A stretch of 64,000 bases of DNA from the NCBI GenBank assembly GCA_951406725.2, contig OX597815.1:32736001-32800000 (forward strand), read 5' to 3'. Each line of letters starts with the position of its first letter. The stretch's first letter is position 1. The DNA comes from Octopus vulgaris (lineage: Eukaryota). Under the pieces are notes generated by a model, which had not been told where the DNA came from, made no database searches, and was given only the letters and a program-made list of their open reading frames with translations. The position numbers were made by a program, and so were the translations under genes. Below, piece after piece: positions 1,375 to 60,815 of this stretch.

Positions 1375-1850
1375 TAGGTAAAGTTTACAAAACTGTATAA
1401 ATGTATGGTAATAATACTCAATAAAAAGTGATTTAAATATACACAATGGCTTTGGAAGTAAGATTTCAAACTAAGTTCATATCCTATTACAAGAACTGAC
1501 TGTGACTTTGATTGTGACACAGAACTCAACCTCATCCCACCTCATTAACCTGTACAGAAGGAATTAAAATTAAAGTGATACTAGAGCAGAGCAGCAGTCA
1601 CAAGTAGTTGAGTGTTTCGTAGCTACACAATCTCTTTTGTAATACTCTGCTACTCATGACTCTCTTCTGAAAGTGATTTGGGAGTCATAACAAACTCTTC
1701 TCAGTCATATTGTCTCTTCATGACACTAACACATTAACTGTTCCTAGATAAATAATAATAGTTTCAATAACAATGTTAATAATAAATATTTCAATATGGA
1801 GGTTAGATTTTAGTGATTTGTTTTCTGCATACATGGAATATTTAAATAAA

Positions 1851-2040
1851 TTACGGCGATGTACTTGCATAACAAGTAACCTGATCTGAGATCGTGTACT
1901 AGAACAAAAACAATTGCAGCGTGGAAGGTGTTTATAAGCCATTTAAGAAACACACAAAAACCGTTAGAGTCACTTCAACATTCAAATTTAATTTGTCAAA
2001 ATATTTTCGTCACTTTGAGACTGCGACCTGTTCACTGACA
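1851..2040 (-). mobile_element. Single arm of the HHR(G3-C8)-bearing fold-back family
   Basis: Aligns along its length with 19735-19926 and with the reverse complement of 60398-60588. Confidence 0.85.
1994..2040 (-). ncRNA. Type-I hammerhead ribozyme motif, G3-C8 core variant
   Basis: Minus strand: UGUCA-GUGAACA-G-GUCGC(agucucaaa)GUGAC-GAAA-AUAU-U-U-UGACA; stem I, stem II and palindromic helix III all pair. Confidence 0.7.
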
Positions 2041-2639
2041 TAAATCCCAGAAGACTCAAAGACAAAGTTGAGTGGTGATTGAAATAAGAAATTCATCTAA
2101 ATAAAATGCAATAAATTTACTTTGGTACTGGTGCCATTTGGAAATCTGTGGATTAGCAACACATTGTCAGTGATTCTAATTCATTTAGGACCATAACAAA
2201 ATTATCAAATTTTTTTCTCAAGGTTAAAAAAAAAATGTGCTTATCAGAATGGAGATGGAATGTAAATAGACTATGGATGCACTTATATGGAGTATGGATG
2301 CAAATGTTATATGCCAATAGTGATATGATATGATATGAGTACCTTACACAGAAGATCACTATGGAAATATGTAGAGAGATCAGATCTGAAAATGTTGGGC
2401 TTCACAGATGACACAGGATGAAGAGAAGTGGCATATCCATCTAACTCATGCTGACATGAAAATATGGTCAGTAAAATAGTAACGATGCAGAAAGAAGATC
2501 CTGATAATAAGTCAACTGTAAAGCATAATCTCAATTTATATCTAATTAAATATTCTTCAGAATAATGAAGTTACAGCACACTCTAGATAAACTAGCTAAT
2601 TAAATGTTGCTACTACAACAGCCTCTAAACTACTTGTTT

Positions 2640-18795: not shown

Positions 18796-18953
18796 GCAGG
18801 AGTGGCTGTAGTAAGTAGCTTGCTTACCACCCACATTGTTCCCGGTTCAGTCCCACTGTGTGGTACCTTGGGCAAGTGTCTTCTACTATAGCCTCGGGCC
18901 GTCCAAAGCCTTGCAAGAGGATTTGGTAGACGGAAACCGAAAGAAGCCCGTTG

Positions 18954-18990
<37 letters not shown>

Positions 18991-19222
18991 GTTTGTGTAT
19001 CTGTGTTTGTCTCCCCAACATCGCTTGACAACCGATGCTGGTGTGTTTACGTCCCCGTAACTTAGCGGTTCGGCAAGAGAGACCGATAGAATAAGTACTA
19101 GACTTACAAAGAATAAGTCCTGGAGTCGATTTGCTTGACTAAAGGCAGTACTCCAGCATGGCTGCATTCAAATGACTGAAACAAATAAAAGAATAAAAGA
19201 AAAAGAATACAAAAAGAAAAGA
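18796..19222 (+). mobile_element. SINE family A
   Basis: Full-length homologue of 970-1374. Confidence 0.9.
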
Positions 19223-19625: not shown

Positions 19626-19721
19626 GGAGACTTTACGAAAAAAACGAAAGACAAAGACACGTGGTGTACAAAACAAACAGATGTATTAGTATAACGCTCA
19701 GGAATAGAAAAAATATTTTAC
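19626..19721 (-). mobile_element. Truncated copy of the HHR-bearing 52809-52994 element
   Basis: Shares GTGGTGTACAAAACAA...ATGTATTAGTATAACGCTCAGGAATAGAAAAA; flanked by (TA)n. Confidence 0.75.
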
Positions 19722-19734
19722 TATATATATATAG

Positions 19735-20051
19735 TTATGGAGATGTACTTGCATAGCAAGTGACTTGATCTGAGATCGTGTGCTGGAACGAAAACAATTG
19801 CAGCGTGGAAGGTGTTTATAAGCTATTTAAGAAACACACAAAAACCATTAGATTCACTTCACCATTTAAATTTAATTTGTCAAAATATTTTCGTCACTTT
19901 GAGACCGCAACCTGTTCACTGACAAAATTCCGTGCTGCATCTCAAAACGCTGAAAATATTTCGACAAATTAAATTTAAATGTTGAAGTGAATCTAACAGT
20001 TTTTGTGTGTTTCTTAAATGGCTTATAAACACCTTCCATGCTGCAATTGTT

Positions 20052-20052
<1 letters not shown>
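19735..20052. mobile_element. Fold-back element of the HHR(G3-C8) family in (TA)n
   Basis: 19791-19905 is inverted as 19940-20052. Confidence 0.85.
19876..19926 (-). ncRNA. Type-I hammerhead motif, G3-C8 core
   Basis: UUUGUCA-GUGAACA-G-GUUGC(ggucucaaa)GUGAC-GAAA-AUAU-U-U-UGACAAA; 7-bp stem I. Confidence 0.72.
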
Positions 20053-20095
<43 letters not shown>

Positions 20096-20099
20096 AGAA

Positions 20100-28344: not shown

Positions 28345-28758
28345 TACTCTCTTTTACTCTTTTACTTGTTTCAGTCATTTGACTGTGGCCATGCTGGAGC
28401 ACTGCCTTTAATCGAGCAACTCGACCCCAGGACTTATTCTTTGTAAGCCCAGTACTTATTCTATCGGTCTCTTTTTGCCGAACCGCTAAGTGACGGGGAC
28501 ATAAACACACCAGCATCGGTTGTCAAGCAATGCTAGGGGGACAAACACAGACACACAAACATACACGCACACATATATATATATACATATATACGATGGG
28601 CTTCTTTCAGTTTCCGTCTACAAAATCCACTCACAAGGCTTTGGTCGGCCTGAGGCTATAGTGAAAGACACTTGCCCAAGGTGCCACGCAGTGGGACTGA
28701 ACCCAGAACCATGTGGTTGGTAAACAAGCTACTTACCACACAGCCACTCCTGCGCCTA
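28345..28758 (-). mobile_element. SINE family A
   Basis: Nearly identical to 970-1374. Confidence 0.9.
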
Positions 28759-33255: not shown

Positions 33256-34045
33256 AATGTGTGATAAGAAGCTTGCTTCCCAACCACATGGTTCCAGGTT
33301 CAGTCTCACTGCTTGGTACCTTGGGCGAGTGTCTTCTACTATAGCCTTGGGCCTACCGGAGTCTTGTGAATGGATTTGGTAGATAGAAACTGAAAGAAGC
33401 CCATTGTATATGTATATATATATGTCTAAGTGTGTGTTTGTCTGTGTTTGTTCCCACCACTGCTTGGCAACTGGTGTTGGTTTGTTTATGTCCCCATAAC
33501 TTAATAGTTTGGCTTAAGAGGCTGATATAAGTACCAAGCTTTAAAGTTAAAAAGACAATGAGTACTGGAGTTGATTCATTTGATAAAAGATAGAAGATAT
33601 GTATATGTGTGTGAAAGTCTGATGCTCTGCTAACAGAGCTGTGCAGGTGTGGCTGTGTGGTAAGCAGTTTGCTTTCCCACCACATGGTCTTGGGTTCAGT
33701 TCTGCTGTGTGGTACATTGAGTAAGTGTCTTCTACTATTGCTCCAGGTTGACCAAAGCCTTGTGAGATTTGGTAGAAGTAACTGAAAGAAGTTCACTTCA
33801 TATAAGTATACATGTATATGTATGTATACGTGTGTATGTGTGTGTTATTGTCTTCTTGTTTTAACTTCATGTTGACTTCATACAAGCAATGTATCTGTCA
33901 TTTGCAATCTCTGATAAAAACAGGTGTGATCATTGGAAGAAGGTGAGGGTTATGGACGGGAAGGGCTCCAGCTGTTGAAAATCTGGCTCAATAAATTCTG
34001 CCTGACCCATGAAAGCATGGAAAAGTAAATGTTAAAACAACATTA
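33256..34045 (+). mobile_element. Two tandem SINE family A-headed copies
   Basis: Heads near 33256 and 33642 with CCACATGG...GTTCAG motifs. Confidence 0.75.
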
Positions 34046-41375: not shown

Positions 41376-41845
41376 ATAGCTGTGTGGTTAAGAAACTTGC
41401 TTTCCAACCACGTGATTCTGCGTTCAGTCCCACTGCATGGTACCTTGGGCAAGTGTCTTCTATTATATCCCTCAGCCTACCAAAGACTTGTGAGTGGATT
41501 TGGTAGGTGGAAACTGAAAGAAGACTCTTGTGTGTGTATGTGTGTGTGTGTGTGTGTGTGTACTTTTGTCTAGACGTGATGGCTGTAAATGTGTGTCATT
41601 GTCATACAAGCAAGGTTGTTCGTTTCTTGTTTTCTGTGAAAAGCTTATCAAGTTGTAGGAAAATATTACCTTGCTTGGAAATAGGTGAGGGTTGGTTACA
41701 GCAAAGGTGTCATAGAAAATCTGCTTCATCAATTTTGTCTGACCCATGCAGGTATGAAAAAGTGGGCATTAAATGATGATGACAATGACAATGATGACGA
41801 CGACAACTACTACTACTACCACTACCACCACCACCACCACCACCA
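41376..41845 (+). mobile_element. SINE family A head fused to an RTE-tail body
   Basis: A-type head, then body ending GACCCATGCAGGTATGAAAAAGTGGGCATTAAATGATGAT; similar to 59630-60030. Confidence 0.7.
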
Positions 41846-51965: not shown

Positions 51966-52443
51966 AAAATCAAAATAAGCAACAGGATATCAAGTAGTGA
52001 TGCAATACAACTGTTTCAAGTGGCTCCATTTAATTGAACAATGCAATCATTACATCAATTTAAATACAGTGCCATCATCAACTGCATTCCAAACAGACAC
52101 AGTCTTAGATTTAGTAGTTGATAAAGAGACAAATGAATTAGAAATGGACCACAATCCTTTACAAGCTATGACCCCTGTGGGCTTCATGCCATTCCTGGAA
52201 GTGTAGTTTATTCTTAGCTATAATGGTATCAACATAAATTTCTTCCGTCTTCTTGCTCTGTTAAAGTATTTGAAAAAAATTATATTAATGTGTCCAACTG
52301 GTTAAAATTCTATTTATTTGTGCTGCTGATGATGGCATGGCATTGCATTTAAATTGATGTAATGATTGCACTGTTCAATTAAATGGAGTCACTTGAAACA
52401 ATTTTACTGCATAGCTACTTGATACCCTGTTGCTTATTTTGAT
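51966..52443. mobile_element. Fold-back element with a hammerhead in each arm
   Basis: 51966-52087 is inverted as 52320-52443; TA-rich on both sides. Confidence 0.8.
52320..52412 (+). ncRNA. Hammerhead motif with long stem II
   Basis: GUGCUG-CUGAUGA-[about 60 nt hairpin]-GAAA-CAAUUU-U-A-CUGCAU; mirror copy at 52000-52087 (-). Confidence 0.55.
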
Positions 52444-52506
52444 ATTTTGATGTATATATATATTCAAGTCTGTGTGTATCATAGGTTGAAGATGGGAAGG
52501 ATGGTT

Positions 52507-55258: not shown

Positions 55259-56186
55259 TTGGTGAATACTGTCATAAGCTTTGCCTTCAGTTCATCTTGG
55301 GCGCTACAAGGAGTTTTGTTGGTCTCTTCTCAACTGTGCCCCACACATAATAATCAAGCTGTTGCAGTCTGGAGACTTAGGTGGCCAGATGTTAGGGGTG
55401 ATGTGGTCACAGAAATTGTCTGACAGCCATGACTGGGTTCTCCCTCTTGACCCAGAGCAGCACTACCTCCTCCAGGCACTTGATGTAGGCCTCTGTGTTG
55501 AGTCTGAGGTTGTGTGGGAAGATGAACGGAGGCATAATGTTGCCATCACTAGTGATCACTCCAAACACCATCATGTTGGCTGGATGTTAATCTGAGGACA
55601 TGTACCAAGAGTGATAAAAATCAATCATCCTGTCAACATCATGGAGTTTGGAGTGATCACTAGTGATGGCAACATTACACCCCAATTCATCTTTCCACAT
55701 GGCCTCAGACTCAATTTAGAGGCCTACATCAAGTGCCTGGAGAAGGTAGTACTGCTCTGGGTCAAGAGGGTGGCTGCTGGAAGACCCTATGTCTAGTAAC
55801 AGGACTCTGCACCATGCCACACAAGCAGGAGAACCCAGACAATTTCTGTGACCACATCACCCCTAACATCTGGCCACCTAACTCTTCAGATTGCAACCCC
55901 CTTGATTATTATGTGTGAGGCACGGTTGAATGAGAGACCAACAAAATGCCTTGTAATACCAAAGATGAACTGAAGGCAAGAGTTATGGCAGTATTCACCA
56001 AGGAGACTGTCCAGAAGTGTTGGAGGAGATTCCGAAGTCGTCTGGAGGCTGTGGTTGAAGCCAATAGTGATTTTATTGAATAAATTTACTCTTTAGTATT
56101 TCAAGATATTTTTATGCAATTTTGGTAAATATATCTGTTAAAATGTTTTTGCGTAATTTAGATGATGGCTTATTCACCGCACCCAG
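55259..56186. mobile_element. maT/DD37D-like Tc1/mariner 3' half arranged as a fold-back
   Basis: Plus arm: FGVITSDG, QDSAPCHTS, IWPPNSSDCNPLDYYV; minus arm 55259-55587 is its inverted copy; ends CACCCAG-TA. Confidence 0.85.
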
Positions 56187-59211: not shown

Positions 59212-60256
59212 AACAAATGCATATCATAAACAGGGCACAGTATAATAGTATTCCTGTTCGATTGTCTGCTCATATGTAGTTTAGCAGCTCAGGGTAGCCC
59301 TGTAAGCCGGTGGTATGAATGGTTAAGTAGTGGAATAGCTACTGTGGCAACCAATGGTGGGGACCGGAGTTGAAGGAGGATTAATAGAAGCAGTGGTTTG
59401 GAGGTAGGAGGTGTGTGGAATACAAAGGGAAAGGTAGATGAGATTAAGAAGCTCAATTTGCTTGTTAACCATTTTATATTAATGTTAAAGGGATTTTGAA
59501 TCATCTTGTATAATTCATGTCTGTATACACATATGTATATCTGTTTATTTTGTTTGTGTGTGTGTGTGTACATATATGTATGTATGATCGATTGATGCAG
59601 GTATGGGTGTATTTATGTATGTATTATAGGTGCAGGCATATGTGGTAAGAAGTTTGCTTCCTAACCACATGGTTCCAGGTTCAATCCCACAGCGTGGCAC
59701 CTTGGGTATCTTCATATGTAGTTCTGGGTTGACCAAAGCCCTGTGAGTGGATTTAGTAGACCGAAACTGAAAGAAGTTAATCATATATGTGTGTACATAT
59801 GTGTGTGAGTGTACGTATGATTGTCTTCTTGTCTTGACACTGCATGCTTGTTGTAAGTGAGTGTCACTCTCATACAAGTATTGTCATTCATTTCTAATAA
59901 TCTGTAGGAATACGTCTGGTCTTGAGGAAATATAACTTTGCTTGGAAATACATGAGGGCATCTCGCCATGGAAAATTTGCCTCCTTCCAACCCATGCAAG
60001 CATGGGAAAATGAATGTTAAATGGTGATGATGTATGTATATGAGTAACTAGTTGCAGTCATGGCTATGTGGTTAAGAAGTTCGCTATGGCACAGGCATGG
60101 CTGTGTGGTAAGAAGCTTGCTTTCCAACTGTTTTGTTCCAGGTTTAGTCCCACTGCGTAGCACCTTGGGCAGGTGTCTTCTACTATAGCCTCAAGACCTC
60201 AGAATGACCAAAGACTTGTTAGTGGATTTGGTAGATGGAAACTGAAAGAAGCTTGT

Positions 60257-60286
<30 letters not shown>

Positions 60287-60290
<4 letters not shown>

Positions 60291-60588
60291 GGAGATGTAC
60301 TTGCATAGCAAGTGACCTAATCTGAGATCATGTGCTGAAACAAAGACAATTGCAGCGTGGAAGGTGTCAGTGCTGCATCTCAGATGCAGCACAAAGTTTT
60401 ATCAGTGAACAGGTCATGGTCTCAAAGCGATGAAAATATTTTGACAAATTAAATTTAAATGTTGAAGTGAGTCTAACGGTTTTGTGTGTTTCTTAAATGG
60501 CTTATAAACACCTTCCACGTTGCAATTGTTTTCGTTCCAGCACATGATCTCAGATCAAGTCACTTGCTATGCAAGTACATCTCCGTAA
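60287..60588. mobile_element. Fold-back element of the HHR(G3-C8) family in (TA)n
   Basis: TTATGGAGATGTACTTGC ... GCAAGTACATCTCCGTAA; central palindrome GTGCTGCATCT-C-AGATGCAGCAC (60370-60392); decayed HHR at 60398-60448 (+). Confidence 0.85.
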
Positions 60589-60815
60589 TATATATATATA
60601 TATTATAAAATTTTTCTGCAGGTGATAGAACAGACTAAAGAGAAGAACTCAGAATATATGTATTGGTTTTGTATAAATGTTTAAAACATTTAGGTATTTG
60701 CCTTAGAAGAATTTTAACACAGTTTTAAAATAGAGGATTGCTATTTTATTTAGACAAAAAACATGAATCTGATATGCCTTCGGTTAGAAAATACTGTCTC
60801 CTCTCTCTCTTTCCT

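What the first reader, a model, noticed from the sequence alone, without database searches (positions are those of the whole stretch)
19735..20052. Best G3-C8 hammerhead copy inside a fold-back whose second arm starts in the stem II loop
The HHR at 19876-19926 (-) has a 7-bp stem I (UUUGUCA/UGACAAA), GUGAACA core, 5-bp stem II with two G-U pairs, GAAA and palindromic AAUAUU helix III. The inverted arm joins through TCTCA microhomology (GCATCTC-AAA), implying a template switch or deletion at the loop. The predicted cleavage triplet UUU is atypical. The same core occurs in all three copies, so it is a family trait rather than decay.
Basis: partly seen in the sequence, partly recalled or inferred. 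Interest (0 to 1): 0.8.

Follow-up and report, generated by a model that had tools for sequence, protein, structure and literature searches.

The report
Swapped-core hammerhead in Penelope retrotransposon
A common jumping-gene family in this animal genome carries a hammerhead RNA motif whose central C-G pair is flipped to G-C while two related families use U-A and C-G, so it likely still folds like a self-cutting RNA (cutting untested), and the fold-back around it is the family's usual insertion shape.

Summary
The motif is real. It sits in the 208-nt pseudo-LTR (5'UTR plus first 30 codons) of a Penelope-like retrotransposon (PLE) with about 56,000 copies in G000. Long open frames of the parent (GIY-YIG, RT motif) lie about 1 kb upstream of the same G3-C8 core. 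G3-C8 is the family norm (93 of 100 and 98 of 100 listed copies). Two homologous PLE families carry U3-A8 and C3-G8, with compensatory stem changes, so 3 and 8 covary. I found natural U3-A8, but only engineered G3-C8, in the papers I could read. Corrections: the two G-U pairs are CpG decay; a UUU triplet is already published for a PLE hammerhead; the fold-back is ordinary (32 of 66 insertions); the microhomology is 3-4 nt. In 29 of 32 inverted insertions a long and a short 3' end are paired, and either arm can carry an extra G, which favours two cDNAs over a snap-back. No sign of cleavage in copy ends or RNA reads; activity is untested. New variant of a known kind.

The parts
19735..19942 (-). 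Long arm: solo pseudo-LTR of the PLE, from +1 (inferred transcription start) to the distal 3' end at +208
19876..19926 (-). Type I minimal hammerhead-like motif with G3-C8 core
19920..19926 (-). Stem I, 5' strand
19913..19919 (-). Core G3-U4-G5-A6-A7-C8-A9 (G3 = 19919, C8 = 19914); extra G at 19912
19893..19911 (-). Stem II (5 bp, two G-U pairs from CpG decay) and 9-nt loop II
19883..19892 (-). G12-A13-A14, palindromic helix III AAUAUU, U17; predicted cut between 19883 and 19882
   Evidence: the cut site is inferred from hammerhead numbering
19876..19882 (-). Stem I, 3' strand
19737..19826 (-). First 30 codons of the PLE ORF; the start codon reads ATA in this copy
19735..19791 (-). 'Tail': 57 nt between the two 3' ends, present on the long arm only
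19940..19943 (+). Junction: TCT shared by both arms, plus a C that is either the copy of the mRNA cap or the short arm's own base
19940..20052 (+). Short inverted arm, element positions +39 to +151; lacks the core, so it holds no complete hammerhead
20052..20097 (.). (TA)n target, right side; a shorter (TA)n lies at 19721-19732 on the left
1850..2047 (-). Second family copy in the window, core at 2035
60288..60589 (+). Third family copy (60382-60589, core at 60405, stem II degenerate) with an inverted piece at 60288-60367; here both arms carry the tail

Best explanation
The motif is the hammerhead-like element in the 5' UTR (pseudo-LTR) of a Penelope-like retrotransposon, with the core pair flipped from C3-G8 to G3-C8; it likely still adopts the active hammerhead fold and would cut slowly, as a dimer or with the element's protein (untested), and the fold-back likely arose from two cDNAs joined head to head. 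Steps: (1, shown) the 208-nt unit continues into the ORF and recurs about 1 kb behind the stop of RT/GIY-YIG frames. (2, inferred) A capped mRNA starts at +1, 23 nt before G3. (3, inferred from PAc) Reverse transcription starts inside the ORF, at about +150 or +208, and runs to the cap, giving many solo copies. (4, inferred) Both nicked target strands are primed, one at each start site, and the two cDNA ends anneal through a few bases; here the cap-derived end met loop II. (5, inferred) The copied RNAs were mostly uncut, so cleavage is not what sets the 5' end. (6, inferred) Selection on the parent kept a Watson-Crick pair at 3-8 through at least two swaps.
For: Parent link: pLTR runs into the ORF at L377; G3-C8 core with perfect stem II in 10 of 10 top ORF loci L337-L346; 1025-aa open frame with GIY-YIG over the Pfam cut-off. 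Covariation: family B U3-A8 in 28 of 30 loci, ORF-linked; family C, found by protein similarity alone (54% identity), C3-G8 in 98 of 100. An unguided alignment puts the three cores in register; the 3-8 pair is Watson-Crick in 9 of 9 rows in three types, 7 of 11 pairs change on both sides, score reached by 0 of 500 shuffles. A scan allowing all 16 combinations at 3/8 over 400 kb plus the window found only C-G (7) and G-C (4). PLE hammerhead hallmarks match PMC4209133. The engineered C3G/G8C double mutant partly restores cleavage of a PLE hammerhead, which needs the protein (PMC11167929). Cap: 52 of 85 copies that break at +1 have an extra G against 18% background. Two 3' ends, 29 of 32 inverted insertions long+short; arms agree at subfamily sites, 26 of 26 at +73 and 17 of 17 at +42; short arms beginning with the extra G while the long arm stops earlier at L395 and L417.
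Against: No evidence of cutting: about 18-21 copies break at the predicted site against about 17-19 at a control site 7 nt downstream (counted by eye); no pile of read ends in three RNA runs (a weak test). Family C, which has many intact frames, has C in place of the conserved A9 in 96 of 100 copies, so catalysis may be relaxed in this clade. The covariation rests on only three related families, and the shuffle control ignores relatedness. The extra nucleotide is G, where the published consensus has A, C or U. The fold is not unusually stable. One window copy has two tail-bearing arms. Central deletions after insertion could mimic some short-arm-longer cases.
Confidence: 0.66

Rival explanations
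1. The structure is a former ribozyme kept as a 5' UTR element, for binding of the element's protein or for translation control, and no longer cuts.
For: A9 is lost in family C; no genomic or read-end trace of cutting; cleavage is dispensable for PAc insertion in vitro (PMC11167929); Naiad PLEs thrive without canonical hammerheads (PMC8557442).
Against: The 3-8 pair forms only in the catalytic fold (recalled from the full-length crystal structure), and it stays Watson-Crick in all three families; all other core bases are kept in the young subfamily.
Confidence: 0.25
2. For the fold-back only: a single cDNA snaps back on itself (self-priming or template switch), and the endonuclease later trims one arm, leaving the tail on the other.
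For: Self-priming was proposed for head-to-head PLE structures (PMC3846280) and endonuclease resolution for the tail (PMC8557442). Arms come from one source. In this copy the long arm reaches further 5', as a snap-back needs.
Against: The short arm reaches more than 5 nt further 5' in 16 of 29 long+short pairs, the long arm in 7, about equal in 6 (window copy left out); short arms can carry the extra G; the two 3' ends fit two reverse-transcription starts as shown for PAc.
Confidence: 0.25
3. G3-C8 is a chance match fixed by drift or by an overlapping signal (a core-promoter base at +24, or the UUUUGUCAG acceptor-like run), unrelated to the hammerhead fold.
For: Given two changed positions, about one in three outcomes pairs by chance (inference). 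G3 completes an AG after a pyrimidine run.
Against: 0 of 30,000 shuffles give the motif; homologous cores align with paired 3/8; no joint in the RNA reads that were shown uses that AG (19 joints not shown).
Confidence: 0.07
4. The unit is a non-autonomous SINE, retrozyme or fold-back DNA element rather than a piece of an autonomous PLE.
For: Most copies are solo 208-nt pieces; two loci hold tandem arrays (L024, L031).
Against: It is continuous with the ORF at its 3' end and with a 1-kb 3' UTR at its 5' end; junctions vary, so there are no fixed terminal inverted repeats.
Confidence: 0.03

Closest known systems
Minimal type I hammerheads of metazoan Penelope-like elements (Cervera and de la Pena 2014, PMC4209133)
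   Same: In the pLTR; extra nucleotide between 9 and 10.1; G10.1-C11.1; short palindromic helix III; U17 is common, and the Crassostrea gigas row has the same UUU triplet.
   Different: All 56 rows of their alignment start with C3 or U3; the only 3-8 covariation they report is U3-A8. Here it is G3-C8 and the extra base is G.
PAc (Poseidon of Anolis) hammerhead and internal initiation (Frangieh et al. 2024, PMC11167929)
   Same: pLTR includes the ORF start; two 3' ends that bound a tail; both strands nicked and extended; uncut RNA is the template; C3G/G8C partly rescues.
   Different: There G3-C8 is an engineered mutant, here it is the natural state. The tail is 57 nt rather than 30-40, the ATG lies about 57 nt after the predicted cut, and the protein has a Cys-rich RT-EN linker.
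Natural U3-A8 core variants (Perreault et al. 2011, PMC3088659)
   Same: Covariation of the 3-8 pair in nature.
   Different: The passages seen report U3-A8 only.
Head-to-head pLTR insertions of Penelope elements (PMC3846280, PMC8557442)
   Same: Inverted 5'-truncated copy, tail on one end, microsatellite targets, solo pLTRs.
   Different: Those papers favour self-priming or endonuclease resolution; the counts here favour two cDNAs.
Non-LTR retrozymes (PMC7229834; bioRxiv 10.64898/2026.07.22.740005)
   Same: Short high-copy repeats with a type I hammerhead, related to PLE pLTRs.
   Different: Retrozymes are tandem and non-coding; these copies are mostly solo or inverted and are the 5' end of a coding element.

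Membership tests
Type I hammerhead (PLE minimal form) | Literal core C3-U-G-A-N-G8-A9 | tested here: not met
   G3 and C8
Type I hammerhead (PLE minimal form) | Watson-Crick pair between 3 and 8 that covaries among relatives | tested here: met
   G-C, U-A, C-G in three homologous families
Type I hammerhead (PLE minimal form) | U4 G5 A6 A9, G12 A13 A14, A15.1-U16.1, H17, G10.1-C11.1 | tested here: met
Type I hammerhead (PLE minimal form) | Stems I and II; short palindromic helix III; extra base before stem II | tested here: met
   the extra base is G, outside the published A/C/U consensus
Type I hammerhead (PLE minimal form) | Match to an Rfam hammerhead model | tested here: not met
   none among 106 matches at E <= 1 in the window
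Type I hammerhead (PLE minimal form) | Site-specific self-cleavage after N17 | not testable with these tools
   indirect tests blank
Type I hammerhead (PLE minimal form) | Tertiary contact between stem I and loop II | tested here: inconclusive
   a leader/loop II pairing seen in the old subfamily is lost in the young one; other contacts not examined
EN+ Penelope-like element | Single ORF with C-terminal GIY-YIG endonuclease | tested here: met
   PF01541 at 25.4 bits, cut-off 22.6, residues 915-1005 of 1025
EN+ Penelope-like element | Reverse transcriptase domain of PLE type | tested here: inconclusive
   YVDD motif and 28% identity to another RT/GIY-YIG family of G000; homologues named RT domain proteins; no Pfam RT match and no PDB match
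EN+ Penelope-like element | pLTR that includes the ORF start, in partial tandem or inverted form, with a tail on one end | tested here: met
EN+ Penelope-like element | Target-site duplications or AT-rich/microsatellite targets | tested here: met
   duplications of roughly 9-13 nt read by eye at several loci, (TA)n at many
Neptune or Nematis clade | Cys-rich CX2-5CxxC linker between RT and EN | tested here: met
   C-x3-C-x2-C before the GIY-YIG; feature as described in PMC8557442
Neptune or Nematis clade | Placement in an RT tree with reference elements | not tested
   no named reference sequences were at hand
Non-LTR retrozyme | Non-coding tandem repeats with a hammerhead in each unit | tested here: not met
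   33 solo, 32 inverted, 1 other of 66 insertions; ORF-linked
MITE or fold-back DNA transposon | Fixed terminal inverted repeats | tested here: not met
   junctions vary from copy to copy

The most novel reading that the evidence does not exclude
This is a naturally active G3-C8 hammerhead, and this one genome holds PLE hammerheads with all four Watson-Crick pairs at 3-8 (G-C here, U-A and C-G in sister families, A-U in an unrelated family), a class that CUGANGA-based searches miss; in addition, the element's head-to-head insertions are made by a protein dimer that primes both target strands, one at each internal start site.
Probability: 0.4. Interest if true: 0.68.

Novelty: new variant of a known kind. 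Interest (0 to 1): 0.5.

Why it matters
The 3-8 pair was established with engineered swaps; in the literature I could read, nature had shown only C-G and U-A. A G3-C8 core fixed in a high-copy element with open frames, beside sister families with U-A and C-G, is a natural series for asking whether PLE hammerheads are selected for cutting or for shape, an open question for these elements. It also suggests that descriptor searches undercount hammerheads. Separately, the long+short rule and the extra G on either arm give a testable account of the head-to-head insertions typical of Penelope elements.

Tried and rejected
Rfam scan of the window: no hammerhead match. Pseudoknot between the 5' leader and loop II: rejected, since the young subfamily changes the loop without changing the leader. 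Splice acceptor as the cause of the sharp 5' end: a branch-point-like and pyrimidine run precedes +1, but no shared upstream exon appears and an extra G does, so a capped start is preferred. 5' ends at the cleavage site: no excess over a control site; 3 of 99 arms start at +61, but two of them are junctions through the self-complementary stem I. G3 in hammerheads with ACRYGT helix III: 38 matches against 54 for the reversed pattern, no family. A C3-G8 subfamily inside this family: none among 6 double variants. Selection cannot be read from copy-to-copy changes, which follow CpG decay. Sequencing runs: no RNA holder on record among the indexed runs. PDB search blank. Earlier findings of this scan: none. 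The paper by Lunse, Weinberg and Breaker on PLE hammerhead variants could not be read, nor one supplementary file of PMC4209133; either may already show G3-C8. Genomes of other molluscs were not available, so the range of the variant is open.

Full report
The observation. On the minus strand, 19926-19876 reads stem I (7 bp), GUGAACA, an extra G, a 5-bp stem II with a 9-nt loop, GAA, AAUAUU, U and the 3' strand of stem I. Stems I and II appear in the minimum-energy fold, which is no more stable than shuffles (z -0.72). A descriptor for this anatomy with any Watson-Crick pair at 3/8 was met by 0 of 30,000 dinucleotide shuffles of the 208-nt unit, and by 2 when relaxed. Rfam gave no hammerhead among 106 matches at E <= 1. 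The inverted arm is 19940-20052. All three copies in the window have GUGAACA.

The family. The window lies in G000, 2.8 Gb. A protein 98% identical to the sister family C protein is named from Octopus vulgaris, so the genome is probably an octopus. Forty stretches of 10 kb at fixed steps held 8 insertions, about 56,000 genome-wide (95% interval 24,000-110,000). With positions 3, 7 and 8 left free, the older loop type has 2,335 exact matches, 93 of the first 100 being G3-C8; the younger loop type has 1,986, 98 of the first 100 being G3-C8. Only 6 older-type matches differ at both 3 and 8, none as C3-G8. Over 107 arms the pair is G-C in 94; the commonest stem II is fully Watson-Crick, and the two G-U pairs of this copy are C-to-T changes at CpG sites seen in 14 of 109 and 10 of 120 arms. 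So this is a mildly decayed copy.

The parent. 1,104 matches continue upstream of the unit into a (CATA)n-rich stretch. About 1 kb further upstream lie frames with a YVDD motif, a C-x3-C-x2-C linker and a GIY-YIG domain; the longest open frame is 1025 codons (L359). All 10 top ORF loci carry the G3-C8 core with a perfect stem II. At L377 the unit runs on into the ORF, its 3' part encoding MAYKHLPRCNCFRFSTRSQIKLLAMRVHLR. The unit is therefore the pseudo-LTR of an EN+ Penelope-like element, 5' UTR plus 30 codons, as described for rotifer Penelope (PMC3846280, passages) and PAc (PMC11167929, parts 1 and 2 of 4). Pfam did not call the RT and the PDB search was blank, so the clade is not settled.

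Covariation. Family B was found with a pattern that excluded G3 and C8 but did not require pairing. It has 2,196 matches with one mismatch, U3-A8 in 28 of 30 loci, and an ORF start MTLPRHNRICFNTRTHIKNLANQIQKR. Family C was found by protein similarity alone (54% identity), starts MTIPKYNNICFNTRLHIKNLAQQIFKR, and has C3-G8 in 98 of the first 100 of 3,342 matches, but C9 for A9 in 96 of them; an older C copy has the full canonical core (L521). MAFFT aligned nine real copies, three per family and chosen by me, with the cores in register. The 3-8 pair is standard in 9 of 9 rows (C-G 3, G-C 3, U-A 3), 7 of 11 pairs change on both sides, and 0 of 500 shuffles reach the score. That control ignores relatedness, family B's shorter helix III is out of register for stem I, and three families give only two independent swaps. 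A scan of the 400 kb and the window that allowed all 16 combinations found 7 C-G and 4 G-C and nothing else. Other families of G000 add U3-A8, C3-G8 and A3-U8 with a 2-bp stem II (591 matches, 99 of the first 100); these came from searches that favoured paired cores and are not independent tests.

The 5' end. Of the first 100 of 176 exact matches to the 5' end, 15 keep the native upstream bases. Of the other 85, 52 have a G just before +1, where the parent has C or T and the genome has 18% G (counted by eye). No shared upstream exon appears. I read this as the copied cap of an mRNA starting at +1 (a mechanism recalled from LINE work). Some of these G's could also come from the partner arm. In 99 arms chosen by the ORF start, 41 begin between -3 and +12 and 4 between +58 and +64. 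Genome-wide, about 18-21 of 51 listed matches break at the predicted cut and about 17-19 of 91 at a control site (by eye). The copied RNAs were thus mostly uncut, as for PAc in vitro. Three raw RNA runs of one study, about 6% of each read, gave 2,006, 1,497 and 1,419 reads on L016, in both directions, 79% running on into other flanks, with no pile of ends. These look like passengers in host transcripts; I did not show that the runs are of the same species.

The fold-back. Of 66 insertions chosen by the ORF start (70 loci, 4 duplicates dropped), 33 are solo, 32 head-to-head and 1 other; 3' ends fall at about +150 or +208; 29 of the 32 pair one long with one short end, 2 pair two short ends (p about 5e-7 against an even split). 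The arms agree at subfamily sites (26 of 26 at +73, 17 of 17 at +42, 28 of 30 at +93). Leaving out the window copy, the short arm reaches more than 5 nt further 5' in 16 of 29, the long arm in 7, and they are level in 6. At L395 and L417 the short arm begins with the extra G while the long arm stops earlier. This fits two first-strand cDNAs, one from each start site, joined at their ends, better than the self-priming proposed in PMC3846280. Against it, the third window copy has two tail-bearing arms, and later deletions can shift junctions. In this copy the shared bases are TCT, or TCTC with the extra base, and the same loop II junction occurs in 4 of the 85, this one included.

What is known. 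PMC4209133 (parts 1 and 2 of 4; supplement file 2, parts 1 and 2 of 3) describes the same anatomy, low activity as dimers, and U3-A8 as the only 3-8 change; none of its 56 aligned motifs has G3, but its searches were built on C3-G8 and U3-A8. Its oyster row has the UUU triplet. PMC3088659 (passages) reports natural U3-A8. PMC11167929 shows partial rescue by C3G/G8C and protein-assisted cutting. PMC3884650 (abstract and passages) mentions an engineered G3-C8 that does better without C17, which fits U17 here, although families B and young C also have U17. PMC8557442 (passages) lists inverted copies, tails and (TA)n targets as PLE features. Passages of PMC6155905, PMC7229834, PMC6765202 and PMC11014351 and part 1 of the 2026 retrozyme preprint added nothing on G3-C8. 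Full-text searches for G3-C8, G3C8, C3G, G8C, GUGANCA, A3-U8 and 'positions 3 and 8' with hammerhead found no natural case, but most subscription papers and Lunse et al. 2017 were out of reach.

Verdict. It works like a PLE minimal hammerhead and meets every structural feature tested except the literal C3/G8 and an Rfam match; cutting is untested, and the A9 loss in family C warns that it may be weak or gone. The fold-back is ordinary for the family, though its statistics bear on mechanism. New variant of a known kind; interest 0.5.

Noticed in passing
L374 / L347-L358 (G000:C4:868557-868584 and others): An unrelated PLE family has a hammerhead-like motif with A3-U8, a 2-bp stem II and ACCGGU helix III; 591 matches, 99 of the first 100 A3-U8.
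   Followed up: partly
L361-L367, L363:6370-6450: Sister family C, with many 1310-1312-codon open frames and an Asn-rich insert, has C in place of A9 in 96 of 100 listed copies.
   Followed up: partly
L097, L102 and others: A young PLE family with 781-codon open frames and a U3-A8 hammerhead 400-800 nt after the stop.
   Followed up: partly
L127:3080-4560 and inverted copies (G000:C1:20.003-20.005 Mb): Tandem repeat of about 359 bp with a canonical C3-G8 hammerhead in each unit, retrozyme-like.
   Followed up: no
L062, L063, L066, L075, L081: C3-G8 hammerheads with a loop II of about 65 nt.
   Followed up: no
window 19940-19872 (-): An ATG at +3 opens a 22-codon frame across the hammerhead in the older subfamily; a 1-nt deletion shortens it in the younger one.
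   Followed up: no
L016:1500-1710: RNA reads show many A>G and T>C differences; editing of fold-back copies cannot be told from copy variation here.
   Followed up: no
L024:880-1702; L031:1025-2018: Tandem arrays of the pseudo-LTR separated by (TA)n, which could supply hammerhead dimers.
   Followed up: no
family B loci L257-L286: Several copies start at the same place with a G where the parent has C, suggesting a capped start only 13 nt before position 3.
   Followed up: no
window 55442-55770 and 51966-52446: Two other fold-backs, arms of 145 and 110 nt, of other repeats; not examined.
   Followed up: no
window 18807-19200, 1067-1373, 28350-28753, 33258-33847, 41384-41575, 60104-60295: Another dispersed repeat, SINE-like, next to the finding.
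   Followed up: no
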